Part shown: positions 22,655 to 63,748 of the stretch, in pieces
Position numbering within the stretch: the stretch's first letter is position 1
How the letters are laid out: every line of letters starts with the position of its first letter
Origin: Acidimicrobiales bacterium
GTDB taxonomy: Bacteria; Actinomycetota; Acidimicrobiia; Acidimicrobiales; SHLQ01
Direction of reading: 5' to 3'
Assembly (NCBI GenBank): GCA_020628865.1
Contig: JAHDEJ010000009.1
Coordinates: 80,039-144,038, forward strand
Length of the DNA stretch: 64,000 bases
Made by a program: the position numbers and the translations under genes
The notes under the pieces: generated by a model
Told to the model about the DNA's origin: nothing
The model's input: only the letters and a program-made list of their open reading frames with translations
Databases searched by the model: none

Positions 22655-25198
<2,544 letters not shown>

Positions 25199-34723: not shown

Positions 34724-36667
34724 TCAGATGTCCAGGAAGCGAACGTCTTTGGCGTTCGTCTGGATGAAGTGCTTGCGGCGGCCGACGTCCTCGCCCATGA
34801 GCGTGCTGAACACTTCGTCGGCAATGGCGGCCTGATCGACCGAGACCTGGAGGAGCGTGCGGTCCCCCGGGTTCATGGTCGTCTCGGCAAGCTCCTGCCA
34901 CTGCATTTCGCCCAAGCCCTTCAGGCGCTGGAAGTCCTTCTTGTGCTTGGGGTTCTCCTCCATGAACTGATCCTTTTCACGATCGTCCTTGAGGTACAAC
35001 TTTTCCTTGCCCACCGTCGTGGAATACAGCGGCGGCTGCGCGATGTAGATGTGGTTGTTCTCCACCAGCTCACGCATCTGCCGGAAGAAGAAGGTGAGCA
35101 GCAGGGTGCGGATGTGGCTGCCGTCCACATCGGCGTCCGCCAGCAGGATGATCTTGTGGTAGCGGATCTTGGTGATGTCGAACTCTTCGGCGATGCCGGC
35201 GCCGATCGCCTGAGCGAGGGTCTGGACTTCCTGGTTCTTCAGCATCTTGTCGATGCGGGCGCGTTCGACGTTGAGGATCTTGCCGCGGATCGGGAGAATC
35301 GCCATCGTGCGGGGATCGCGGGCCTGGATGGCCGAGCCACCGGCGGAGTCGCCCTCCACGATGAACAGCTCGCGTTCGCGCGGGTCCTTCGAGGAGCAGT
35401 CCTTGAGCTTCTCCGGCATGCCGGCGCCATCGAGCGCCGTCTTGTTGCGAATGGTGTCTCGAGCGGCGCGAGCGGCTTCACGGGCCCGCTGAGCGGCAAT
35501 GGCCTTGTTGATGATGAGCTTGCCCTCGGCCGGGTTCTCCTCGAGCCACTCGGCCAGCTTGTCGTTGGTGGCCTTCTCGACCATGGAACGAACGGACACG
35601 TTGCCGAGCTTGTCCTTGGTCTGCCCTTCGAACTGCGGGTCCTGCAGGCGCACGGAGATGATGGCAGTGAGACCTTCGCGGACATCGTCGCCCGACAGCG
35701 ACTCGGTTTCCTTGAGGAGGTTCTTTGCCTGGCCGTAGTTGTTGATCGTTCGGGTGAGGGCGGACCGGAAGCCGGTCTCGTGCATGCCGCCGCCACCGGT
35801 GGTGATGCCGTTGGCGAAGCTGTGGAGGCCATCGGCATTGAAGCCGGTGTTCCACTGGAAGGCGATCTCGACCTCCTGCGTCTCCTCCGCCACCTCGTAG
35901 TAGCCGACCTTGCTGAAGAGGGCTTCCTTCGACTGGTTCACGTGGCGAACGAAGTCGATGATGCCGCCCTCGTAGTGGAACTCGATCCAGCCGTCTTCGT
36001 CGGCGTCCTCATGGGGCTCATCGCGGCGGAGATCCTGGAACCGGATCTTCAGGCCGCGGTTCAGGAACGCCATCATCTGGAAGCGGTCGAGCAGGGTCTG
36101 GGCCCGGAAGTCCGTCTCCTCGAAGATGGTGTCGTCCGGCCAGAAACGGACGGTCGTGCCCGTGCGTCCGTCCGGCGCTTCGCCCCGAACCTCGAGCTTG
36201 GTTTGGACGTTGCCGCCGTCGGCGAAGTCCATGTAGTGGTGGTCGCCCTGGCGGTCGATCTGGACCTCGACCCGCTTCGACAGTGCGTTCACGACCGAGA
36301 TGCCCACGCCGTGCAGGCCGCCGGACACCTTGTAGCCACCGCCACCGAACTTGCCACCGGCGTGCAGCACGGTCATGACGACCTCGGCCGCCGACATGCC
36401 CTCGTACTTCGGGTGTTCGCCGGTGGGGATGCCGCGACCGTCGTCTCGGACCTCGGCGGAACCGTCGGGATGGATGACGACCTCGATGGCCGAGCAGAAA
36501 CCGGCCATGGCTTCGTCGACCGAGTTGTCGACGACTTCGTAGACGAGGTGGTGCAGACCCTGTGGGCCGGTGGACCCGATGTACATGCCCGGGCGCTTTC
36601 GAACCGCCTCGAGGCCCTCAAGAACGGTGATGTTCTCCGCGCTGTAAGACTCCGGTGAATCAGCCAC
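34724..36667 (-). CDS. gyrB: DNA gyrase subunit B
   Basis: VLEGLEAVRKRPGMYIGSTG, HHLVYEVVDNSVDEAMAG, GGLHGVG, EGDSAGGSA and PIRGKILNVE are present. The GTG at 36667 (VADSPESYSAENI) has a GGAAGGGG Shine-Dalgarno 8 nt upstream. The longer ORF extension is Arg-rich junk. Confidence 0.97.
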   Translation of the reverse strand: MADSPESYSAENITVLEGLEAVRKRPGMYIGSTGPQGLHHLVYEVVDNSVDEAMAGFCSAIEVVIHPDGSAEVRDDGRGIPTGEHPKYEGMSAAEVVMTVLHAGGKFGGGGYKVSGGLHGVGISVVNALSKRVEVQIDRQGDHHYMDFADGGNVQTKLEVRGEAPDGRTGTTVRFWPDDTIFEETDFRAQTLLDRFQMMAFLNRGLKIRFQDLRRDEPHEDADEDGWIEFHYEGGIIDFVRHVNQSKEALFSKVGYYEVAEETQEVEIAFQWNTGFNADGLHSFANGITTGGGGMHETGFRSALTRTINNYGQAKNLLKETESLSGDDVREGLTAIISVRLQDPQFEGQTKDKLGNVSVRSMVEKATNDKLAEWLEENPAEGKLIINKAIAAQRAREAARAARDTIRNKTALDGAGMPEKLKDCSSKDPRERELFIVEGDSAGGSAIQARDPRTMAILPIRGKILNVERARIDKMLKNQEVQTLAQAIGAGIAEEFDITKIRYHKIILLADADVDGSHIRTLLLTFFFRQMRELVENNHIYIAQPPLYSTTVGKEKLYLKDDREKDQFMEENPKHKKDFQRLKGLGEMQWQELAETTMNPGDRTLLQVSVDQAAIADEVFSTLMGEDVGRRKHFIQTNAKDVRFLDI

Positions 36668-36705
36668 GAGACATACCCCTTCCGTCGAGAAATTACGACC
36701 TTGTA

Positions 36706-36711
36706 AGTCTA
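36706..36711 (-). promoter_or_regulatory. -10-like hexamer TAGACT upstream of gyrB
   Basis: Minus strand reads CTGGTAGACTTACAAGG, about 39 nt upstream of the GTG start. Confidence 0.25.
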
Positions 36712-36758
36712 CCAGAGCAGGGGTGACATCCGGCTCCTCCCGCCCATTTGGCCACCGG

Positions 36759-36767
36759 TTGTCCACA
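36759..36767. promoter_or_regulatory. DnaA-box-like 9-mer TTGTCCACA
   Basis: Exact match to the actinobacterial DnaA-box form TTGTCCACA. It lies next to the AT-rich palindrome CTTGATTTTTCAAG (36777-36790) in the gyrB upstream region. Confidence 0.4.
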
Positions 36768-36972
36768 GGCGATTTTTCTTGATTTTTCAAGCAAACGGAC
36801 AGGTGGCTCTGTCGATCGATTGCGAAGCTCGTGTCGTGACGGCAGGGCGGATCCTGATGGTTCCGACGGCGACGGCGCCGTGCATCTGCCCGGCGCGTCC
36901 GGTCAGGTCGGGTCCAGTGCAATAGGCCGAGGATCGGGACGGCTCACCGACGGCTTGAGTGAGCCAGCGACA

Positions 36973-39255: not shown

Positions 39256-40380
39256 TCAGGTGGCGACAAGGTTGCCCTGCCCGAGTCGGATGGTGGCATC
39301 GGCGACAGCGCCGGGTGGAAGGTCGGTTGCCGAGGTGAGCAGGGTCTGTCCGCTCGGCAGCGCGGCGACCAGCGCCGCGGACCGGTCGTCGTCGAGTTCG
39401 CTGAAAACATCGTCGAGGATGAGGAGCGGCGCAACGCCGACGGTCGAGCGAACGAGTTCGTGCCCGGCGAGGCGCAAGGCCAGGGCGACGGATCGTTGCT
39501 CGCCCTGCGAGGCGTGCGTTCGGGCCGGCATGCCGTTGAGAAGGATCTCGACCTCGTCCCGATGAGGCCCGACCGTGCTGACGCCTCGGCGAACGTCGTC
39601 CTTGCGAGATGCCTCGAGCGCGGCGGCCATTCCCGTGTCGTCCCACGGTGCGACGTAGGCGAGAGAAACGTCGTGGTCGGTTCCGGCCACGGCCCGAAGC
39701 GCCGTGCGCACCAGCGGCGTGAGCTCCGCGATGACACCGTCACGAAGGGCGCACAGCTGATCGCCGATCTGGGCGAACTTCTGATCCCACACGTCGAGGG
39801 TGAAGGCGGCATCGGAGTTGAGCCGGCCGCCACAACCCTTGAGCAACGCGTTGCGTTGTTTGAGGACCTTCTCCATTTCCGCGCGGATCGCCTCGTTGCG
39901 AGGGTGGAGGCCGAGCAGCACGTGGTCGAGATAGGTGCGCCGTTCCCCTGGCGATCCCTTGACCAGTTCGAGGTCGTCGGGCGCGAACACGGTGACCGAC
40001 ATGACGCCGAGCAGGTCCTTGGTCCGCTGGACCTTCTGTCGGTTCATTTGGATGCGGGCGCGGCCGGTGCGAGGCAGTTCGGCCTCGAGGAGGAGCTCGC
40101 GGCCGTCGCTGCGGAGCTGTGCTCGGGCGATCGCGCGCTCGGCCCCGCGCTGGATGAGTGCGTCGGTCGGGGCGCCGCGGAACGACCGCATCGTGGCGAG
40201 CCAGGCGGTGGCTTCGACGATGTTGGTCTTGCCGGAACCGTTGGGCCCGACAATGGCCGTGACCCCGGGAGCAAATGTCATTTCGAAGCTGGAGTGCGAC
40301 CGAAATCCGCTGAGCCAGAGCTGTTCGAGGACGAGCGCAGAGCTGGCGGAGGCCGCGTCGACGGGCGGGGTGTCGGTCAC
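39256..40380 (-). CDS. recF: DNA replication and repair protein RecF
   Basis: LWLSGFRSH, Walker A GPNGSGKTNIVEA, SQGEQRSVALALRLA and Walker B LLILDDVFSELD are present. Confidence 0.95.
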   Translation of the reverse strand: MTDTPPVDAASASSALVLEQLWLSGFRSHSSFEMTFAPGVTAIVGPNGSGKTNIVEATAWLATMRSFRGAPTDALIQRGAERAIARAQLRSDGRELLLEAELPRTGRARIQMNRQKVQRTKDLLGVMSVTVFAPDDLELVKGSPGERRTYLDHVLLGLHPRNEAIRAEMEKVLKQRNALLKGCGGRLNSDAAFTLDVWDQKFAQIGDQLCALRDGVIAELTPLVRTALRAVAGTDHDVSLAYVAPWDDTGMAAALEASRKDDVRRGVSTVGPHRDEVEILLNGMPARTHASQGEQRSVALALRLAGHELVRSTVGVAPLLILDDVFSELDDDRSAALVAALPSGQTLLTSATDLPPGAVADATIRLGQGNLVAT

Positions 40381-56883: not shown

Positions 56884-57639
56884 ATGACAGTGGCGATGGG
56901 TGCCGAAGCGGCGGCACCGGAAGCAGATCTCGTGTCGGTCGTCTACGACCCTCTGGTGGCTGCAGCGCGTCGCCGGTACGTGACCGGCCGAGGACATCGG
57001 GCGATGACGGATCCGGCAGCCCGGCCGGAAGTTCTGGATCGGTTCCTGATCGAATTCTGTGCACAAGGCGTGCACATGACTCGCCCGGTCGACGACTGGA
57101 TCACCCGCGCTGGAGCGCGGTGCATCGAGCTCGGGATGGGCGAACTCGGTGCCGCATTGCAACGGCATGCGGTGCACGAAGCCGGGCATCACTCGATGAT
57201 GATCGACGACACCCGGATGCTCGTCGCGGCATGGAACCAGGACGGTCGCCGGCCGCTCGATGCCGACGAACTGCTGGCCCGGGACCCCTCCCCCGGCGTC
57301 CAGCAGTACGTCGAGCTGCATGAGCGCACGATCGACTCGGCGAATCCGTGGGGGCAGCTCGCCATCGAGTACGAGATCGAGCTGCTCTCGATCACATCGG
57401 GGCCCGTGTTGATCGGCAACGTGGCCGCCGTGTGTGGGGCGGACCGAGTGCAGTCGCTGAGCTTTCTCACCGACCACATCGCCGTCGACGAGGGGCACAC
57501 GGTCTTCAATCGTCGGCAGTTGAATCAGGTCCTGGCCGAGCGACCGGCGTTGGCCGTGCCGCTCGCCGCGGCCGGATCCGCGGCACTCGACGCCCACGCC
57601 CGGTTCATCGACGACTGCGCGGAGGTGGCAACGACATGA
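56884..57639 (+). CDS. heme-oxygenase-like fold protein, putative di-iron oxidase/oxygenase (iron-containing redox enzyme family)
   Basis: The ATG at 56884 follows GAGGAGAAGG. The protein is all-helical with spaced carboxylate/His pairs (HAVHEAGHH; EYEIE; DHIAVDEGH), as in HO-like di-iron enzymes. This is family-level inference only. Confidence 0.5.
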   Translation: MTVAMGAEAAAPEADLVSVVYDPLVAAARRRYVTGRGHRAMTDPAARPEVLDRFLIEFCAQGVHMTRPVDDWITRAGARCIELGMGELGAALQRHAVHEAGHHSMMIDDTRMLVAAWNQDGRRPLDADELLARDPSPGVQQYVELHERTIDSANPWGQLAIEYEIELLSITSGPVLIGNVAAVCGADRVQSLSFLTDHIAVDEGHTVFNRRQLNQVLAERPALAVPLAAAGSAALDAHARFIDDCAEVATT

Positions 57640-58169
57640 CGGTGGACATCCGATTCGCGGCGGACGACCGCGAGCATCGGGCCGCGTATCGCTTGCGGGC
57701 GGAGGTCTTCACGGGTGAGGGCATCCTTGCGCGGTCGGCGGATGAGCTGCTGTTCGACACCTTCGACACGCTGCCGTCGTCGCGCACGATGGTCGCAGTC
57801 AAGGATCGGCAGGTCGTCGGAACCGTGCGGGTCACCTGGGCGGATGCGGAAGCGTCCCCGGTGCAGGAGTGGTTCGACCCGACGACGGTCTTCCCCGATG
57901 GCGCGGTCGTCGGCTACGGGTCGATGCTCTGCGTGGCGGCGTCCCACCGGCGGGGCACGCTCGGTCTGCGGTTGGTGAACGCGGCGATGGCAGTGCAACG
58001 CAAGCGGGGCACCACACATGGGGTTGCCCCGATCCGGCCCGAGGCGGAACCGATCTTTCGCCGCCTGGGGTGGTTTCGGGTGGCCGAGCCGTTCGACCAT
58101 CCAATCGAACGGGTGCCCGTCGTCCCCATGGGCGCCGACCTGTGGGCGGGCGTGCTGGCCCGGACGTGA
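57636..58169 (+). CDS. GNAT-fold N-acyltransferase (N-acyl amino acid synthase / autoinducer-synthase-like, Acetyltransf_5 type)
   Basis: An ATGA overlap couples it to the upstream gene. It carries YRLRAEVFTGEGIL..ELLFDTFD..MVAVKDRQVVGTVRV and C-terminal FRRLGWFRV, as in FeeM/OlsB-like acyltransferases. Confidence 0.5.
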   Translation: MTVDIRFAADDREHRAAYRLRAEVFTGEGILARSADELLFDTFDTLPSSRTMVAVKDRQVVGTVRVTWADAEASPVQEWFDPTTVFPDGAVVGYGSMLCVAASHRRGTLGLRLVNAAMAVQRKRGTTHGVAPIRPEAEPIFRRLGWFRVAEPFDHPIERVPVVPMGADLWAGVLART

Positions 58170-58282
58170 GTGGTCGTGGGTAGATCTGCCTCATCACGAG
58201 TGTGATGGATGCGCCGAACAAGTCTCTACCGGGAACCTTCAGCAGCATCTTCGGATGAAACCCCCACCCTGACCTGAAGGTG

Positions 58283-58318
58283 GGTTCCGGGCGGAGTACC
58301 GCCACTCCGCCCGGAACC
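58283..58318. terminator. perfect 15-bp-stem hairpin (terminator or boundary element)
   Basis: GGTTCCGGGCGGAGT-ACCGCC-ACTCCGCCCGGAACC. It is preceded by the smaller hairpin CCCACC(58263-58268)/GGTGGG(58279-58284). There is no U-tract. Confidence 0.45.
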
Positions 58319-58429
58319 TCCGGAAATCCTCGGCGCATCCGTTCCCGAGCCAGCGCTGCAGCACATGCGCGACGACTAACGTCTCGGCAATCGACGGAGA
58401 AGTTGCCGTCGAGGTGAGGAGGCGGACAG

Positions 58430-60661
58430 ATGATCCACGTGGACCGATCGACGGTGCCGGCACCCCCGATGCTCATCGAGCGATGGCCGGAGGAACGCGA
58501 ACGGGCGGCCCGGCTGGCCGCCGAAGGCCGAAACCCGAGCCGCTTCGACTTCTCGATGTTCAACCGCCGTCAGGTTCGTGACGCGCTCTCGCAACTGTTC
58601 CATTCGAAGTGCGCGTACTGCGAGGCCCGCGTCGGCGTGACGAGCAAACCGGACGTGGAGCACTACCGGCCGAAGGGGAACATCACGAACGAGTTCGGCG
58701 ACACCGACCAGGGGTACTGGTGGCTGGCCGGCGAGTGGGACAACTTGCTGTTGGCCTGCCAGACCTGCAACCGCCGGTTTCGGGAGAGCGGCAAGGGCAA
58801 CTTCTTCCCCATCGCCGGCGAGCGGGCGGAGCCGTACACGACCGGGGCCGACCTCGCGGCAGAAGAACCGCTGTTGCTCGACCCCACCGTCGACCAACCC
58901 GACGACCATCTGGTCTTCCTTGACGACGGCTCCGTGGTGTCGGACACCGAGCGAGGTCGCACCACGATCCAGATCATCGGGCTGAACCGTGAGGCGCTGC
59001 AACACGCTCGCCGAGAGGCGATCGACCAGGCGCGGCGGGACCTTGCGTCAGGGCGCGGGGTCACCGAAGCGATGGCGCCCAATGCCGAATACTCGGCGGC
59101 GGTGCGTCACGTGATCGGCCCGCTGTTGGACCGCTCGCTGCTGCCCGACGCCGTTGGTGCGCTTCCGGATGAGTCGACCAAGGACCAGATCCGAGAGGCG
59201 TACACGAGTCACGTCGTCGAGCAGCAGGAGTTCACCGCTCGGGCCGCGGTCGAGCAGAAGCTGGCGATGGAGAACCGTCCGTCCTCCGGTTCGGCGCCGC
59301 CGGTGGAAGCCGACGACCTGAAACGGTTCGTGGGCAACGACTGGCTGGTCGAACGCGTCGAGCTCACCAACGTGAAGTCGATCCCGTCGATCACCTTGGA
59401 GCTGACCGGCCCGGTGCCCGACGATGTCGCGGCAGACACCACACCGATGGCGCCGTGGACGGTGCTGATCGGCGAGAACGCCACCGGAAAGTCGACCGTC
59501 CTCGATTCCACGGTGCTCGCACTCGTCGGCCAGGAGTACGCCGAGGACCTCGTGGCGAATGGCCACGTGAACCCGGCCGACTTCGTCCGTCGAGGTGAGG
59601 ACGAAGGTGTCGTCAGCGTCAAGCTCGGCGAGTCGGTCCGGAAGGTGAAGTTCACCAAGGGCAGCGATCGGCTCGAGTTCGAGAATTCCGTCGAGGCCCA
59701 GAACTTCGTGTTGGCGTATGGCGCCACCCGCCTGCTCGCCCGGGATCGGGAACTTCGCTACGGCAAGACCTGGGCCCGGGTCGACAACCTCTTCTCCTCA
59801 TTCCAACCGCTGGCTCCACCCGAGCTGCTCCTTCGTGAACTGCGAGACAACAAGCCGGACGCCTTCGAACACACCCGGGAGCTGTGGAGCGAAACGATCT
59901 GCCCGGTCCCGGGGTCGGAGCTCGACTTCGACGGCGATGAACTCGTGGTCCATGAGCACGGGTTGACCGTGCCGGTCCGGCTGTTGAGCGACGGCTACCA
60001 GACGGCGTTGGCCCTCGTGACCGACACGTTGCAGGTCGTGTTCAACGTGTTCGACAGTCCGGAGAGCGCCCGGGGTCTCGTCGTGATCGACGAGGTCGGG
60101 TCGCACCTGCACCCGACCTGGAAGATGCGGGTGGTGGAGCAGCTCCGCACGCTGATGCCCCGCATGCAGTTCCTGGCGACCACTCACGATCCGTTGTGTC
60201 TGCGGGGCTTGAAGACCGGCGAGATTGCGCTGATGCAGCGGCACGAGGACGGCTATTCGTTCGGTCAGTTCGACATGCCGTCCCCGGAGCGGATGCGGGT
60301 GGACCAGCTGTTGACCTCCAGGTTCTTCGGCCTGGCCACCACCATCGACCCGGCGCTCGATGCCGAGTTCAGCGAGTACTACCAGCTGCTTGCGATGACG
60401 ACCGCCCAGGTGGAGGAGCTCGGGAAGACCGATCGGTTGGCCGAGCTGCGGGATCGCTTGAGTGGCGAGGGCATGCTCGGGCACACTCGTCGAGACCAGC
60501 TGATCTACGAAGCCATCGACCAGTTCCTCGCAGCGGAGAAGGCGCTGGAGCGGACACCGGACGGCGACGCCGCCGACAGGCCTGACCGACAGGCCGTCTA
60601 CGCCCACATCGGCAAGCTCTGGAACTACGAGGCCGTGCGCGAAGGCCTCGCCGATTCATGA
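58430..60661 (+). CDS. HNH nuclease domain fused to an ABC/AAA_15-21-type ATPase (PtuA-like)
   Basis: aa 61-114 read CAYCE..DVEHYRPKG..WDNLLLACQTCN (4-Cys HNH). Walker A GENATGKST is at aa 348-356, signature LSDGYQ at 519 and Walker B LVVIDEVGSHLHP at 550. RBS GAGGTGAGGAGG precedes the ATG. Confidence 0.8.
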   Translation: MIHVDRSTVPAPPMLIERWPEERERAARLAAEGRNPSRFDFSMFNRRQVRDALSQLFHSKCAYCEARVGVTSKPDVEHYRPKGNITNEFGDTDQGYWWLAGEWDNLLLACQTCNRRFRESGKGNFFPIAGERAEPYTTGADLAAEEPLLLDPTVDQPDDHLVFLDDGSVVSDTERGRTTIQIIGLNREALQHARREAIDQARRDLASGRGVTEAMAPNAEYSAAVRHVIGPLLDRSLLPDAVGALPDESTKDQIREAYTSHVVEQQEFTARAAVEQKLAMENRPSSGSAPPVEADDLKRFVGNDWLVERVELTNVKSIPSITLELTGPVPDDVAADTTPMAPWTVLIGENATGKSTVLDSTVLALVGQEYAEDLVANGHVNPADFVRRGEDEGVVSVKLGESVRKVKFTKGSDRLEFENSVEAQNFVLAYGATRLLARDRELRYGKTWARVDNLFSSFQPLAPPELLLRELRDNKPDAFEHTRELWSETICPVPGSELDFDGDELVVHEHGLTVPVRLLSDGYQTALALVTDTLQVVFNVFDSPESARGLVVIDEVGSHLHPTWKMRVVEQLRTLMPRMQFLATTHDPLCLRGLKTGEIALMQRHEDGYSFGQFDMPSPERMRVDQLLTSRFFGLATTIDPALDAEFSEYYQLLAMTTAQVEELGKTDRLAELRDRLSGEGMLGHTRRDQLIYEAIDQFLAAEKALERTPDGDAADRPDRQAVYAHIGKLWNYEAVREGLADS

Positions 60662-61545
60662 TTCGCATCGATCGTGCAGGGGTGGCGGCACCGTCGGTGC
60701 TCGTCGATGAGGACTCCAGTGCAGCCCGCGAGTTGGCGCGGGCTCGCACGTCGCTGGCCGAGCACGACGGTGACCCGTCGGACTGGAAGTTCAGCTTCTC
60801 CGTCTATTCGAACGGCGACGTGAAGACGGCACTGTCGTCGCTGTTCCATGGCAAGTGCGCCTATTGCGAAAGCCGCTACGACGCCACCCAACCGATGGAC
60901 GTGGAGCACTGGCGGCCGAAGGGCCGGGTTGAAGCGGCGGATGGAACGAAGGTGAAACCGGCGTACTGGTGGCTGGCTGCGGCATGGTCGAACCTGCTGC
61001 CCAGCTGCATCGATTGCAACCGGCGCCGCTGGCACACGAACGTGGTGACCGAAGCCGAGGAGAAGCTCGGTAAGGAGGACCAGTTCCCGCTCCTCGACGA
61101 CACTCGGGCCGCAGCCGAGGGCGAGGAGGAGAACGAACGACCGTCGTTGATCAACCCGTGTGTCGACGATCCGGCCACGTTCTTCGAGTTCACTGACGAG
61201 GCCGTGATCAGGCCGAGGGACGGGCTGAACGAGTCCGAGACGCAGAGGGCCATCGACTCCATCCGGGTGTATGCGCTGAACCGATCTGCGCTCGTCGAAC
61301 AGCGGCAGGAGACGTTGCTTCGTGCCCAGATGAGCGTGGCGATCGTGCACCGGGTGGCCGAGATGCGGGTGGAGCAGCCCGACATGTCCGATGCGATCCG
61401 GATGGTGGTGGATCGGATGGTGCAGAACGAGTTCGTGTGGCTGGCCACCCACTGCCGCGACGACGCCGAATATGCGCTGATGATCCGGCAGCTCGTCGAC
61501 CGTGAATTGGCCGAGTTTCGTGAGGCGCTCGACGCAGTCGAGTGA
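60658..61545 (+). CDS. stand-alone HNH nuclease (PtuB / TIGR02646-like), paralog of the N-terminal domain of the preceding protein
   Basis: An ATGA overlap couples it to the upstream gene. It carries CAYCESRY..MDVEHWRPKG..YWWLAAAWSNLLPSCIDCN and is colinear with aa 1-200 of the upstream protein. Confidence 0.8.
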   Translation: MIRIDRAGVAAPSVLVDEDSSAARELARARTSLAEHDGDPSDWKFSFSVYSNGDVKTALSSLFHGKCAYCESRYDATQPMDVEHWRPKGRVEAADGTKVKPAYWWLAAAWSNLLPSCIDCNRRRWHTNVVTEAEEKLGKEDQFPLLDDTRAAAEGEEENERPSLINPCVDDPATFFEFTDEAVIRPRDGLNESETQRAIDSIRVYALNRSALVEQRQETLLRAQMSVAIVHRVAEMRVEQPDMSDAIRMVVDRMVQNEFVWLATHCRDDAEYALMIRQLVDRELAEFREALDAVE

Positions 61546-61550
61546 ACCGT

Positions 61551-62192
61551 TCAGACGTCCGGGTTCTGCAAACGGAGTCCCCGCCCGCGAACGACGTCGA
61601 TGCGGACGGCGGTCTCGAGTTCGTGAAGTCGGGCACGAAGCCGTTTGATGAGACCGTCGATGGCCTGGTCGCTTACGCCTTCGGCGGCGACGTCGCTCCA
61701 GACCGTTTCGACGATGGCGGCGCGTTCCACGACCTCACCCTGCGCCGCGTCGAGCATGCGTAGGAGTGTGAGTTGCCGGGGTGACAGCGCGGGTTCGAGC
61801 AGTCGCGCATCCACCCAAACGGCGTCCGTGTCCGGGTCGATCCACAGTCCGTGCAGGCGGCCGATGCGCGGTGCCATCGGTGTTGCGAGCGGATCGGTGA
61901 ATCGCAGGGAAAGCACGCCGGCGAACACCAGCACGTCGCCTTCGAGGAGCACTCGAGGTTCTGTGGTCACGGGGTCGCCGTCGATGAATGTGCCGTTGTG
62001 GCTGCCGAGGTCGACGACGGCCCATCCGGTCGCCGTTCGTTCGAAACGGGCATGCGCTCGACTGAGCTGGGCAAGATCGAACGAGATGGCGGCATCTGGC
62101 GATCGACCCAACACGCTCCCGTCGACGAGTGGCCATTGTGTCGATTCCGAACGGGCGGGATCGCCAACGAGGACGAGCAGTGCGTCGTTCAC
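61551..62192 (-). CDS. FHA domain fused to an OmpR/PhoB-type winged-helix DNA-binding domain
   Basis: FHA domain (VLGRSPDAAISFDLAQLSRAHARFE..VVDLGSHNGTFIDG) is followed by a wHTH (LSPRQLTLLRML..VSDQAIDGLIKRLRARL..VRGRGLRL). The GTG at 62192 forms a GTGA overlap with the kinase stop. An alternative ATG is at 62213. Confidence 0.8.
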   Translation of the reverse strand: MNDALLVLVGDPARSESTQWPLVDGSVLGRSPDAAISFDLAQLSRAHARFERTATGWAVVDLGSHNGTFIDGDPVTTEPRVLLEGDVLVFAGVLSLRFTDPLATPMAPRIGRLHGLWIDPDTDAVWVDARLLEPALSPRQLTLLRMLDAAQGEVVERAAIVETVWSDVAAEGVSDQAIDGLIKRLRARLHELETAVRIDVVRGRGLRLQNPDV

Positions 62193-63748
62193 CTGGTGAG
62201 CTCCCCCACGCATTCGCTGCCGGCGGGGGCGAGGACGAGCTCGTCGGCGAGCAGGTAGCCGTCGGCGCCTTCCTTCACGAGGCTGGGCACGAGGAAGCGG
62301 GCGGTTGGCGACGCCGCTGGCATCGTGACGACAACATGGCCCGACCGCCCCGGTTCGAGGGCGAGCTCCACTTCGTCGGCACCGATGGAGGCGTCGGATT
62401 CGCTGGCGACGAGATCGAAGTTCTCGTCGAGCGTGAAGAGGCGGATGAGGGCGGCCTGCGCGTCTGCGGTCGGTGCGACGTAGGCACGGAACACGTAGCC
62501 GGAGCCGGGGACGATCGGGATGGTTTCGCCGAAGAGGCCGAAGTCGCCGGTGGCCCCGACCCGGACCGCTGCGGTCTGGTCGACTCCGCCGGTGGGTGAG
62601 ATGTCGTTGTTGGCGGCGGCTGCGTCGAAGAAGCCGGTCGGCACGTTGCCCGACTCGAAGTCCGGCTCTGTCAGCAGGTTGCAGGCGATCCCGGCGGCGG
62701 TTCCCGCAGACCAGGCCGCCACATCAGTACCAGGGGAATCGCCGCGGGTGAGCAGGCCGGCCGCAATGAGTGCGACGAGCACGACGCCGCCGATCAACGG
62801 CGTGGTCCAACGAGAACGCCTTGCAATCGGGGCGACCGTCTGCGGGGCCGGCGCGTCGATGGAGCGGACCATCTCATCGAGGCTGGTGAATCGATCGGAC
62901 GGGTGTTTTGCGACCGCCCGGAGGATGGCGGTGTCGAACGCGGTTCCGAGCCAGGGGTTCGTTTCGCTGGCCGGGGTGGCGGCCGTGTGGAGATGGTGGT
63001 GCATGGTCGACGCGACCGTCTCGCCGTCGTCCGGGTAGGGCCACCGTCCGGTCACCATTTCGGAGAGGAGAACTCCCGCAGCGTACTGATCGGACGCAGG
63101 GGTGGGTTCTCCGCCGCTGAGCACCTCGGGCGCCAGGTATCGGGGTGTTCCGGCGGTGACGCCATCGGCGGTGAGGGTGGCGGAGTCTGCGCTCCGGCTG
63201 ATCCCGAAGTCGATGACGGAAACGCGGTCGTCCGGTCGAACGATGATGTTGTCCGGGCTGAGATCTCGGTGAACGATGCCCGCATCGTGGACGTGGTCGA
63301 GCACGCCGGCGAGGGCCGAGAGGATCGTCCGAGCCCGCCCCGGCGAGAGCGGACCGCCGCGGAGTTCATCGACGAGGGGCGAACCGTCGACCCATTCGGA
63401 CACCAGCGCCGCCCGGCCCCCGGCTTCGAGCACATCGATGAGAGCGGGCACACCGTCGTGATCCAGGGTGGCGAGCGCGTCGGCCTCGCGGCGAATCCGC
63501 CCGACATCGACGCCGACGTCCAGAAGCTTGACCGCCACCGGAGTGCCATCGGCTTGGCGCCCCCGGTGGACCACGGCGCTTCCGCCCCGTCCGACCGTGC
63601 CCTCGAGCGTGATGCCGACTGCGGCCGCTGCATCGACGAGGCCGTCGGGCGGCGGAGTGGCGGCGGGCGTGGGCACCCGGAAACGGTACCGCCACCCGGG
63701 CCCTTCGGGCGTCAGCCGAGCAGCGCCTCCACCACCTCGGGCCGCCAC
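62189..63748 (-). CDS. transmembrane Ser/Thr protein kinase with extracellular carbohydrate-binding-module-like domain
   Basis: Kinase motifs VAVKLL, HRDLSPDNIIV, DFGISR and GTPRYLAPE are present, then a TM helix (LIGGVVLVALIAAGLL). The ectodomain carries PDFESGNVP..GYVFRAYV, resembling CBM4/9-type jelly rolls. The start is uncertain (ATG 63748 or GTG 63676). Confidence 0.8.
   Translation of the reverse strand: MAARGGGGAARLTPEGPGWRYRFRVPTPAATPPPDGLVDAAAAVGITLEGTVGRGGSAVVHRGRQADGTPVAVKLLDVGVDVGRIRREADALATLDHDGVPALIDVLEAGGRAALVSEWVDGSPLVDELRGGPLSPGRARTILSALAGVLDHVHDAGIVHRDLSPDNIIVRPDDRVSVIDFGISRSADSATLTADGVTAGTPRYLAPEVLSGGEPTPASDQYAAGVLLSEMVTGRWPYPDDGETVASTMHHHLHTAATPASETNPWLGTAFDTAILRAVAKHPSDRFTSLDEMVRSIDAPAPQTVAPIARRSRWTTPLIGGVVLVALIAAGLLTRGDSPGTDVAAWSAGTAAGIACNLLTEPDFESGNVPTGFFDAAAANNDISPTGGVDQTAAVRVGATGDFGLFGETIPIVPGSGYVFRAYVAPTADAQAALIRLFTLDENFDLVASESDASIGADEVELALEPGRSGHVVVTMPAASPTARFLVPSLVKEGADGYLLADELVLAPAGSECVGELTR

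What the first reader, a model, noticed from the sequence alone, without database searches (positions are those of the whole stretch)
58430..61545. Septu-like two-gene module with a duplicated HNH: HNH-ATPase fusion plus free paralogous HNH
Seen in sequence:
- The 743-aa protein has a 4-Cys HNH domain at its N-terminus (CAYCE / DVEHYRPKG / NLLLACQTCN).
- It is followed by a compact ABC-type ATPase with Walker A GENATGKST, signature LSDGYQ and Walker B VVIDEVGSHLH.
- The next gene starts by ATGA overlap and encodes a 295-aa protein. Its first ~200 aa are colinear with that N-terminal domain (MIRIDR.., FHGKCAYCE, DVEHWRPKG, YWWLA, NLLPSCIDCN).

Established knowledge: an AAA_15/21-type ATPase paired with a TIGR02646-type HNH nuclease is the Septu (PtuA/PtuB) anti-phage architecture. 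It is also used as a retron effector.

Inference: as far as I know, an ATPase carrying its own HNH in addition to a separate HNH partner is not the canonical layout, so this may be an undescribed Septu-related subtype.

Context: the pair sits after a 260-bp lower-GC spacer with strong hairpins. It is unrelated in function to both neighbours.
Basis: partly seen in the sequence, partly recalled or inferred. Interest (0 to 1): 0.85.

Follow-up and report, generated by a model that had tools for sequence, protein, structure and literature searches.

The report
Septu defence pair with fused HNH
This is a real two-gene Septu (PtuA/PtuB) anti-phage module of a widespread, already-catalogued clade in which the ATPase carries a built-in copy of its nuclease partner, so it is an ordinary member of a known system with one under-studied feature.

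Summary
ptuA (58430-60661, 743 aa) overlaps ptuB (60658-61545, 295 aa) by ATGA.

PtuA is a full-length PtuB paralog (aa 1-~290) fused to a complete PtuA-type ABC ATPase (aa ~300-743).

The claim of an undescribed subtype does not hold as a matter of cataloguing:
- Three PADLOC Septu type I PtuA models (726-773 positions) cover the fused protein end to end (E 2e-183).
- The 150 best 50%-identity clusters (the listing limit) are all of fused size. In total 1170 clusters reach E<=1e-30.
- Every one of 80 loci from 9 or so phyla that could be checked has the same fused ptuA followed by a free ptuB.

I found no paper that describes the fusion, and no tested member.

What comparison adds:
- The duplication is single and ancient.
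- The free PtuB keeps the catalytic His, Glu and Asn in 76-77 of 77 loci.
- The fused copy keeps only its zinc and structural residues. It has lost the His in 36 of 79 copies, through about 17 independent changes.
- The fused copy is therefore probably a mostly non-catalytic partner, although the window's copy is intact.

The pair is accessory cargo in an Acidimicrobiales chromosome.

Verdict: new member of a known kind, modest interest.

The parts
58170..58429 (.). Intergenic spacer between the FeeM-type GNAT gene and ptuA. It probably holds the upstream terminator and the ptuAB promoter, and it is not a conserved part of the module.
   Evidence: GC 0.62 against 0.66 for the window. RNA fold z = -4.7. 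No sigma-70-like promoter or T-tailed terminator found. No Rfam match. The closest relative (L083) has only ~46 bp upstream of ptuA.
58283..58318 (+). Perfect 15-bp inverted repeat with a 6-nt loop (GGTTCCGGGCGGAGT-ACCGCC-ACTCCGCCCGGAACC). Likely a terminator-like hairpin for the upstream operon.
   Evidence: pair I4, 100% complementary.. The arm sequence occurs nowhere else in the window, so it is not a dispersed repeat.
58418..58422 (+). Shine-Dalgarno-like GGAGG, 7 nt before the ptuA ATG.
   Evidence: Read directly from the sequence. M1 and I2 are nearly invariant in the family, which supports this start.
58430..60661 (+). ptuA: a 743-aa fusion of a PtuB-like HNH module and a PtuA-type ABC ATPase.
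   Evidence: ORF. PADLOC PtuA1 PDLC00292 E 2e-183 over residues 1-732, also PDLC00288 and PDLC00291 end to end. Pfam AAA_21 1.3e-16. AlphaFold mean pLDDT 86.4, pTM 0.80.
58430..59299 (+). N-terminal PtuB-like domain (aa 1-~290): a 4-Cys zinc HNH (C61, C64, C110, C113; H78, N105, N114) plus a helical C-terminal subdomain.
   Evidence: 33% identity to PtuB, E 2e-39. NCBIfam PtuB 2.8e-14; TIGR02646 2.7e-11, below its cut-off. PADLOC PtuB1 3.4e-59. Domain model pLDDT 92.3. All hits at E about 1e-3 or better are PtuB chains, over 250-290 aligned columns.
59327..60658 (+). ABC ATPase body plus C-terminal helical domain (aa ~300-743), equivalent to a complete canonical PtuA. Walker A K354, signature LSDGYQ 519-524, Walker B D554/E555, H-loop H586.
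   Evidence: Unfused PADLOC PtuA1 models align over their full length here, e.g. PDLC00304 339-698 against 37-438/444. phmmer to E. coli Septu PtuA 8EE4 1.1e-15. Foldseek top hits are all PtuA chains, E ~4e-16. The motifs are invariant in 46 of 46 homologs.
60658..61545 (+). ptuB: a free 295-aa HNH nuclease (C67, C70, H84, N112, C117, C120, N121), the predicted catalytic effector.
   Evidence: PADLOC PtuB1 PDLC00328 E 8.8e-78 over residues 1-293. TIGR02646 58.8 bits against a cut-off of 52.15; NCBIfam PtuB 4.6e-21. Matches PDB PtuB chains. Catalytic His/Glu/Asn kept in 76-77 of 77 orthologs.
60658..60661 (+). ATGA start/stop overlap, implying translational coupling of ptuA and ptuB.
   Evidence: A 4-bp overlap is possible in 38 of 58 related loci and a 0-30 bp gap in 12 more. 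The closest relatives have the same 4-bp overlap.

Best explanation
The locus is a stand-alone (type I, retron-free) Septu anti-phage module of the 'HNH-fused PtuA' clade.

Shown:
- PtuA is a complete PtuB paralog joined to a complete PtuA-type ABC ATPase with every ATPase motif intact.
- PtuB is a free HNH nuclease, translationally coupled to ptuA.
- The duplication and fusion happened once, long ago.
- Across the clade the free PtuB never loses its catalytic residues, whereas the fused copy keeps only its zinc-finger and structural core and often loses the catalytic His or Asn.

Inferred by homology to the characterised E. coli Septu and retron-Eco7 PtuAB:
- PtuA oligomerises into an ATP-governed scaffold and sensor.
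- It holds PtuB through the PtuA C-terminal helices.
- On phage infection the complex releases or activates HNH cleavage of nucleic acid (DNA nicking/degradation, or cleavage of tRNA-Tyr). This arrests the infected cell and stops phage spread.

Inferred from the conservation asymmetry:
- The free PtuB is the obligatory catalyst.
- The fused PtuB-like domain mainly acts as a built-in, largely non-catalytic partner, for substrate binding, docking or positioning PtuB, or regulation.
- In this window it still has an intact active site (H78, N105, N114), so it may add a second cut.
For: Family assignment:
- PADLOC PtuA1 2e-183 end to end and PtuB1 9e-78 full length.
- TIGR02646 above its cut-off for PtuB; AAA_21.
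- Closest solved sequences are Septu and retron PtuA and PtuB.
- Fold matches: ATPase body to PtuA, N-domain only to PtuB.

Stand-alone type: no reverse transcriptase among the neighbours and no Rfam ncRNA.

Conserved architecture:
- 80 of 82 loci have fused ptuA followed by free ptuB on the same strand. The two exceptions are contigs that end right after ptuA.
- The 4-bp overlap is common.

Single ancient duplication:
- The fused domains form a pure clade (77 fused, 0 free).
- Nearest neighbours are of the same type in 154 of 156 sequences.
- Same-locus identity between the two copies averages 32%.

Conservation asymmetry:
- Free PtuB: His 77/77, Glu 76/77, terminal Asn 77/77.
- Fused copy: Cys, R80, P81, Y96, W98, W103 and N105 in 77-79 of 79, but His 43/79 and Asn 42/79.
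- No locus has the His only in the fused copy.
- All three catalytic positions survive in only 19 of 79 fused copies.
- About 17 independent His-state changes.
- ATPase motifs are invariant in 46 of 46.

Accessory, mobile character:
- The closest relatives (61% and 58% identity) share only the cassette.
- Relatives that keep the cellulase-kinase-FHA block carry other cargo in this slot.
- 34 plasmid records carry relatives.

Mechanistic frame, from papers:
- Septu PtuA6:PtuB2, DNA cleavage regulated by ATP (as cited).
- tRNA-Tyr cleavage, and the requirement for Walker A/B and the HNH His/Asn (PMC13096335).
- PtuB's C-terminal domain binds the PtuA C-terminal domains (PMC12673091).
Against: - To my knowledge no member of the fused clade has been tested against phage. 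Defence is inferred from homology that is distant for the ATPase: 16-18% identity in structural alignments and phmmer 1e-15 to E. coli PtuA.
- The window shows no defence island. Its neighbours are regulators and metabolic genes. A census of 120 flanking ORFs in related loci shows no strong defence enrichment.
- GC and GC3 match the host, and all conspecific contigs carry the pair. In this lineage it behaves like a stable resident.
- The window's fused HNH has a complete catalytic set, so the 'non-catalytic partner' reading may not apply to this copy.
- NCBIfam's PtuA and PtuB equivalogs (built on retron Ec78) score far below their cut-offs.
- I could not model the hetero-oligomer.
Confidence: 0.8

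Rival explanations
1. Dual-nuclease Septu. In this copy both HNH sites are active, and the fused and free HNH domains act as a heterodimeric pair. Each cuts one strand, so the complex makes double-strand breaks instead of nicks. Lineages with a dead fused site have reverted to nicking or to single-site RNA cleavage.
For: - The window's fused domain keeps C61/C64/C110/C113, D75, E77, H78, N105 and N114, identical in pattern to PtuB.
- Its nearest relatives P0003 and P0004 also keep H78 and N114.
- 19 of 79 fused copies keep all three catalytic positions, and 43 of 79 keep the His.
- Characterised PtuAB complexes nick supercoiled DNA (PMC12819146), so a second site would change the outcome.
Against: - About 17 independent changes of the His state, and uncoupled loss of His and Asn (Fisher p = 0.26), indicate relaxed rather than purifying selection on catalysis in the fused copy.
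- P0004, at 58% identity, has already lost the acidic residue before the His (DIGH).
- TIGR02646 scores below its cut-off for the fused copy and above it for the free one.
Confidence: 0.3
2. Not immunity. The pair is a chromosomal nucleic-acid maintenance or stress-response nuclease-ATPase (a RecF/SbcC-like repair function), or a selfish toxin-antitoxin-like addiction cassette, retained for reasons other than phage defence.
For: - It lies on the chromosome within ~35 kb of gyrA/gyrB/recF.
- It has host-like GC3 and is fixed in all conspecific contigs.
- No recognisable defence genes are nearby.
- There are weak RecF/SMC_N hits on the Walker A region.
- No match in 50,697 phage records.
Against: - The distribution is patchy. 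Relatives with the same conserved flank lack it, and the closest homologs sit in unrelated contexts.
- It occurs on 34 plasmids, many of them conjugative, and across 9 or so phyla at only 30-40% identity. That is typical of horizontally moving defence cargo, not of a core repair gene.
- The best matches at every level are Septu and retron effectors.
- In Stenotrophomonas it lies about 3 kb from an Mrr restriction gene and about 5 kb from a type I restriction gene. On a B. mycoides plasmid it follows a dcm methylase gene after about 540 bp.
Confidence: 0.1

Closest known systems
PADLOC 'Septu type I' PtuA1 HMM clusters PDLC00292 / PDLC00288 / PDLC00291, with PtuB1 clusters PDLC00328 / PDLC00319
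   Same: - End-to-end matches: 1-732 against 1-716/726 (E 2e-183), and 1-293 against 1-292/295 (E 9e-78).
- The same models also cover the Bacillus cereus plasmid and Stenotrophomonas fused proteins.
- This is the family the window belongs to.
   Different: Nothing architectural differs. These are database models only. I found no publication that describes the fusion they contain, and no tested member.
E. coli Septu PtuAB (PDB 8EE4, 8EE7, 8EEA, 8SUX; Li et al. 2024) and Septu Ec-B88 (PMC13096335)
   Same: - Two-gene ABC ATPase plus HNH operon.
- The ATPase fold and motifs match, and the PtuB fold matches.
- Both enzymatic activities are required for defence in the E. coli systems.
   Different: - E. 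coli PtuA is 465 aa with no HNH. PtuB is ~234 aa there, against 295 aa here.
- Sequence identity is only 16-18% in structural alignments.
- The stoichiometry (PtuA6:PtuB2) and the substrate are unknown for the fused clade.
Retron type I-A effectors PtuA/PtuB (Retron-Eco7/Ec78, Ec83; = PADLOC Septu type II)
   Same: These are the best sequence and fold matches for the HNH modules: NCBIfam PtuB 4.6e-21 and Foldseek 9NNB_J 1.6e-07. The ATPase matches at E ~1e-15.
   Different: - There is no reverse transcriptase or msr/msd ncRNA here.
- Scores are far below NCBIfam's equivalog cut-offs: 88 against 500 for PtuA, and 76 against 150 for PtuB.
- Retron PtuA has a coiled-coil insert and N-terminal extension for msDNA and RT binding, instead of an HNH.
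Gabija GajA and OLD-family nucleases (ABC ATPase fused to a nuclease in one chain)
   Same: The concept is the same: an ABC ATPase covalently joined to a nuclease domain and regulated by nucleotide (papers read).
   Different: The nuclease there is a C-terminal TOPRIM, not an N-terminal HNH. No TOPRIM domain is detected here. There is no second, free paralog of the nuclease.

Membership tests
Septu type I (stand-alone PtuA/PtuB) | Adjacent, co-oriented genes for an ABC-type (AAA_15/AAA_21) ATPase and an HNH (TIGR02646-type) nuclease. | tested here: met
   ORFs with a 4-bp overlap. AAA_21 1.3e-16. TIGR02646 58.8 bits, above the 52.15 cut-off, for gene 2.
Septu type I (stand-alone PtuA/PtuB) | Both proteins match Septu-specific profile HMMs over their full length. 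| tested here: met
   PADLOC PtuA1 PDLC00292 2e-183 (residues 1-732) and PtuB1 PDLC00328 8.8e-78 (residues 1-293). PADLOC's system-level rule itself was not run.
Septu type I (stand-alone PtuA/PtuB) | Intact ATPase motifs (Walker A/B, signature, H-loop) and HNH motifs (His, Asn, zinc Cys), which are needed for defence in the characterised systems. | tested here: met
   K354, LSDGYQ, D554/E555 and H586; PtuB H84, N112, N121 and 4 Cys. The requirement in E. coli Septu is from PMC13096335.
Septu type I (stand-alone PtuA/PtuB) | PtuA and PtuB folds as in the solved complexes. | tested here: met
   Foldseek: the ATPase body matches 8EEA, 8EE4 and retron PtuA chains at E ~4e-16. The N-domain matches PtuB chains only. 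PtuB itself was compared by sequence only.
Septu type I (stand-alone PtuA/PtuB) | PtuA oligomer that clamps PtuB through the PtuA C-terminal helices (6:2 in E. coli). | not testable with these tools
   No multimer prediction is available. The monomer model has a helical C-terminus (aa 641-742) of lower confidence.
Septu type I (stand-alone PtuA/PtuB) | Protection against phage infection. | not testable with these tools
   I found no experimental data for any fused-clade member. Whether the founding Bacillus systems of Doron et al. 2018 are of the fused type could not be checked, because the papers and supplements are not held.
Retron type I-A / Septu type II | A reverse transcriptase gene and an msr/msd ncRNA immediately upstream of ptuA. 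| tested here: not met
   The upstream genes are a GNAT and a haem-oxygenase-like enzyme. No Rfam hit in 57600-62300 at E<=1. NCBIfam retron PtuA and PtuB equivalogs score below their cut-offs.
OLD / Gabija / PARIS (ABC ATPase + TOPRIM) | A TOPRIM nuclease domain, fused or adjacent. | tested here: not met
   No TOPRIM hit in either protein. All top PADLOC hits are PtuA or PtuB.

The most novel reading that the evidence does not exclude
The HNH-fused PtuA clade may be a mechanistically distinct and so far undescribed Septu subtype. An ancient duplicate of the effector nuclease was captured by the ATPase and has become a pseudo-nuclease: zinc finger and fold preserved, catalysis dispensable. In that role it would bind the substrate or pair with the free PtuB. 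The stoichiometry, activation logic and perhaps the target would then differ from the E. coli PtuA6:PtuB2 paradigm.
Probability: 0.45. Interest if true: 0.45.

Novelty: new member of a known kind. Interest (0 to 1): 0.3.

Why it matters
For annotation, it settles the call. This is Septu type I, and standard tools (PADLOC) should already label it, so it is not a new system.

For Septu biology, there is a modest but concrete lead. All mechanistic work so far concerns unfused PtuA. A large clade, however, carries a built-in PtuB paralog: at least 150 fused-size clusters at 50% identity, found in 9 or so phyla and on plasmids. Its catalytic residues decay repeatedly while those of the free PtuB never do. 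That natural experiment says which nuclease is essential, and it suggests a pseudo-enzyme role that simple mutants could test. It could also help explain why different PtuAB complexes nick DNA, degrade DNA or cut tRNA.

Tried and rejected
- Retron link: rejected. There is no RT gene nearby and no Rfam family in or around the structured spacer.
- Spacer as a conserved ncRNA or part of the module: rejected. The closest relative has only ~46 bp upstream, and the hairpin arm is unique in the window.
- OLD/Gabija/PARIS membership: rejected, because there is no TOPRIM.
- Prophage or phage origin: no match in the phage collection. The only tRNAs are about 41 kb or more away.
- Defence-island context: not found in the window. 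A census of 120 flanking ORFs from about 31 related loci gave 133 different Pfam families and no dominant defence neighbour.
- Recurrent local duplication or gene conversion between the two HNH copies: rejected by the clean split into a fused clade and a free clade. The short DNA repeats between the copies (D1/D2/D6) only cover the conserved motifs.
- Presence in E. coli genomes: no DNA-level match when querying with the Erwinia copy.
- Whether the Septu systems validated by Doron et al. 2018 (B. thuringiensis HD12, B. weihenstephanensis KBAB4) are of the fused type: unresolved.
  - Fused pairs do occur on B. cereus-group plasmids.
  - Doron 2018, Li 2024 and Krishnan 2020 are not held, nor is the supplementary sequence table.
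- Literature search for an explicit description of the fusion: eight probes, none found (plus reading in 11, 12, 17, 21, 22, 36, 64, 77, 78).
- The look-up of encoding contigs for the exact protein: not on record.
- The afdb50 fold library was unavailable.


Full report
OBSERVATION

The two ORFs are at exactly the stated coordinates: 58430..60661 (+, 743 aa) and 60658..61545 (+, 295 aa). They overlap by ATGA.

Every quoted motif is at the stated place, and H78 and K354 are numbered correctly. A GGAGG box lies 7 nt before the first ATG (58418-58422).

The two proteins are clearly paralogous: 33% identity, E 2e-39. The alignment runs over the entire 295-aa protein (PtuA 1-267 against PtuB 1-289), not only the first ~200 residues.

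The 260-bp spacer is only marginally GC-poorer than the window (0.62 against 0.66). It does hold a perfect 15-bp inverted repeat (58283-58318) and folds far better than shuffles (z = -4.7).

The neighbours are unrelated in function. Upstream are a LuxR/AAA regulator, a haem-oxygenase-like enzyme and a FeeM-type GNAT. Downstream are an FHA/Trans_reg_C regulator and a Ser/Thr kinase.

WHAT IT IS

Profile searches are unambiguous.
- Against PADLOC-DB, the 743-aa protein is covered from residue 1 to 732 by PtuA1 model PDLC00292 (E 2e-183). It is also covered end to end by PDLC00288 and PDLC00291. These models have 726, 733 and 773 positions, so they were themselves built from fused proteins.
- The 295-aa protein is covered over its full length by PtuB1 model PDLC00328 (E 8.8e-78).
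- The N-terminal 210-225 residues of PtuA also hit PtuB1 models (E 3.4e-59).
- Unfused PtuA1 models of ~440-450 positions align over their full length to residues ~340-700.
- NCBIfam gives TIGR02646 above its cut-off for the free protein (58.8 against 52.15 bits) and below it for the fused domain (43.7 bits).
- The retron-Ec78 PtuA and PtuB equivalogs hit both proteins, but far below their cut-offs.
- Pfam sees only AAA_21 and AAA_15; its HNH model is sub-threshold.

Structural evidence agrees.
- The nearest solved sequences are E. coli Septu PtuA (8EE4, E 1.1e-15) and retron PtuA and PtuB.
- An AlphaFold model of the whole protein is confident (mean pLDDT 86.4, pTM 0.80). Its best PDB matches are exclusively PtuA chains.
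- A separate model of residues 1-280 (pLDDT 92.3, pTM 0.88) gives hits at E about 1e-3 or better only to PtuB chains: retron Ec78/Eco7, retron IA, retron Ec83 and E. coli Septu 8EEA_G. These align over 250-290 columns.

So PtuA = [complete PtuB-like module] + [complete PtuA], followed by a separate PtuB. There is no reverse transcriptase nearby and no Rfam ncRNA. It is therefore the stand-alone (type I) form, not the retron I-A form.

HOW COMMON IS THE LAYOUT

Very common.
- A word-indexed search found 424 relatives at E<=1e-10. The best 120 were almost all 700-800 aa at 89-100% coverage, came from many phyla, and were often already labelled 'TIGR02646 family' by JGI.
- An exhaustive HMMER scan of 1.84 billion cluster representatives gave 1170 clusters at E<=1e-30. 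All 150 listed (E<=1.6e-94) are 664-1079 aa.
- A scan of one genome per species found at least 556 stretches that encode a relative. The 80 kept come from Actinomycetota, Acidobacteriota, Alpha-, Beta- and Gammaproteobacteria, Bacteroidota, Planctomycetota, Gemmatimonadota, Bacillota and Deferribacteres.
- In 80 of 82 loci, the fused ptuA is followed on the same strand by a free HNH paralog. The two exceptions are contigs that end just after ptuA.
- A 4-bp overlap is possible in 38 of 58 loci.
- Relatives sit on 34 plasmid records (Rhizobium, Bacillus cereus group, Klebsiella and others). RefSeq calls them 'AAA family ATPase' plus 'hypothetical protein' or 'retron system putative HNH endonuclease'.
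- None is in the phage collection.

WHAT COMPARISON ADDS

I aligned 79 fused N-domains with 77 free PtuBs.

| Residues | Free PtuB | Fused copy |
|---|---|---|
| Zinc Cys ligands | 76-77 of 77 | 77-78 of 79 |
| R80, P81, Y96, W98, W103, N105 | 77 of 77 | 78-79 of 79 |
| Catalytic His | 77 of 77 | 43 of 79 |
| Glu before the His | 76 of 77 | variable |
| Terminal Asn | 77 of 77 | 42 of 79 |

- In the fused copy the His is replaced by R, L, Q, N, M, W, Y, K or T, in perfect register with the flanking RP motif.
- No locus has the His only in the fused copy.
- Only 19 of 79 fused copies keep all three catalytic positions. The losses are not coupled (Fisher p = 0.26).
- The fused domains form a pure clade in a neighbour-joining tree, and nearest neighbours are of the same type in 154 of 156 sequences. 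The duplication and fusion were therefore single and ancient.
- Parsimony on that rough tree needs about 17 His-state changes.
- The ATPase motifs are invariant in 46 of 46.

This is the signature of a paralog retained for its fold rather than its chemistry. The window's copy and its nearest relatives are in the intact minority.

CONTEXT

- The window is chromosomal and close to the origin cluster (gyrA, gyrB, recF).
- It comes from an uncultured Acidimicrobiales/Acidimicrobiia bacterium, judged from GyrA neighbours.
- GC3 of the two genes (0.87 and 0.83) is host-like.
- The conspecific contigs carry the pair in the same place, wherever they extend far enough to show it. DNA identity is 94.7%.
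- More distant relatives keep the cellulase-kinase-FHA block but have other cargo right after the FHA gene. One has a 1647-aa DUF3686/AAA protein plus two further genes. Another has small unrelated ORFs.
- The closest PtuA homologs (61% and 58% identity) share nothing but the cassette.

The pair is therefore accessory cargo at a synteny breakpoint. It is not in a recognisable defence island. A census of flanking ORFs in related loci likewise shows heterogeneous neighbours.

MECHANISM

By homology with characterised systems:
- PtuA should form an ATP-governed oligomeric scaffold whose C-terminal helices clamp PtuB's C-terminal domain (PMC12673091).
- Phage infection should then unleash HNH cleavage of DNA or of tRNA-Tyr, with an abortive-infection-like outcome (PMC13096335; PMC12819146).
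- Both the ATPase and the HNH motifs are required in E. coli Septu.

From the conservation asymmetry I infer two things. The free PtuB is the obligatory catalyst. The fused PtuB-like domain serves mainly as a non-catalytic partner, for substrate binding, docking or positioning PtuB, or regulation.

In this particular copy the fused site is intact, so a second cut (the dual-nuclease rival) cannot be excluded. A non-immune role is unlikely, given the patchy and plasmid-borne distribution.

COMPARISON AND NOVELTY

The locus passes every membership test for Septu type I that could be run. It fails those for retron I-A and for OLD/Gabija/PARIS.

It differs from every experimentally studied PtuA (465-552 aa) by the N-terminal PtuB module and the longer PtuB.

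I found no paper that mentions the fusion. However, Doron 2018, Li 2024 and Krishnan 2020 were not readable. I also could not determine whether the founding Bacillus systems are of the fused type, although fused pairs do occur on B. cereus-group plasmids.

VERDICT

This is a new member of a known, already-catalogued kind. Interest is modest (0.3), carried by the pseudo-nuclease lead rather than by the architecture itself.

Noticed in passing
L018:8774-10711, L032:8909-10831, L039:8826-10799, L045:8868-10796, L047:8760-10685 (all + strand): In a Propionibacteriales/Kribbella subclade, a ~640-aa patatin-like phospholipase gene follows ptuB directly on the same strand. This suggests a three-gene variant (fused PtuA, PtuB, patatin). 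Patatin was also the most frequent flanking family overall (7 of 120 ORFs). It is absent from the window.
   Followed up: partly
window 56730 (compare L086:13469-15193 and L087:8567-10291): Conspecific contigs are collinear with the window, but at this point they carry an extra 1725-bp segment encoding a 598-aa protein with a weak Trans_reg_C hit. The point lies between the haem-oxygenase-like gene and a 133-aa ORF, about 1.7 kb upstream of ptuA. Identity drops from 94.7% to 85.8% across the junction.
   Followed up: partly
L092:8675-16278 (- strand): In a relative that keeps the cellulase-kinase-FHA block, the slot occupied by ptuAB in the window holds a 1647-aa DUF3686/DUF7902/AAA protein plus 633-aa and 224-aa proteins. 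None of them hits PADLOC. This may be an uncharacterised cargo system at the same variable site.
   Followed up: partly
window 22655-25198 (-), 34724-36922 (-), 39256-40380 (-): gyrA, a probable gyrB and recF place the window next to the chromosomal replication-origin gene cluster. The GyrA neighbours that carry an organism name are mostly Acidimicrobiales/Acidimicrobiia MAGs (85% identity and below).
   Followed up: partly
P0461 (1079 aa), P0413 (941 aa), P0454 (866 aa), P0463 (853 aa): Some family members are 100-330 aa longer, with the ATPase part starting at residue ~410-510. They may carry an additional, unexamined N-terminal or inserted domain.
   Followed up: no
L069:5884-7605: In an Acidobacteriaceae MAG chromosome the fused ptuA is broken into three short ORFs (156, 233 and 182 aa), apparently a decayed pseudogene copy.
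   Followed up: no
window 58583-58750 versus 60829-60999: Short DNA-level direct repeats, 2246-2249 bp apart, link the two HNH copies (for example 27 nt at 93% identity over the DVEH-RPKG motif). They coincide with the conserved protein motifs and the shared codon bias, and are not evidence of a recent duplication.
   Followed up: yes
L001:14195-18295: In Stenotrophomonas the fused Septu pair lies about 3 kb from an Mrr-type restriction gene, with a type I restriction (HsdR) gene about 2 kb further on. On a B. mycoides plasmid (L085) a dcm methyltransferase gene ends about 540 bp upstream of it. These are examples of defence-island context that the window itself lacks.
   Followed up: no
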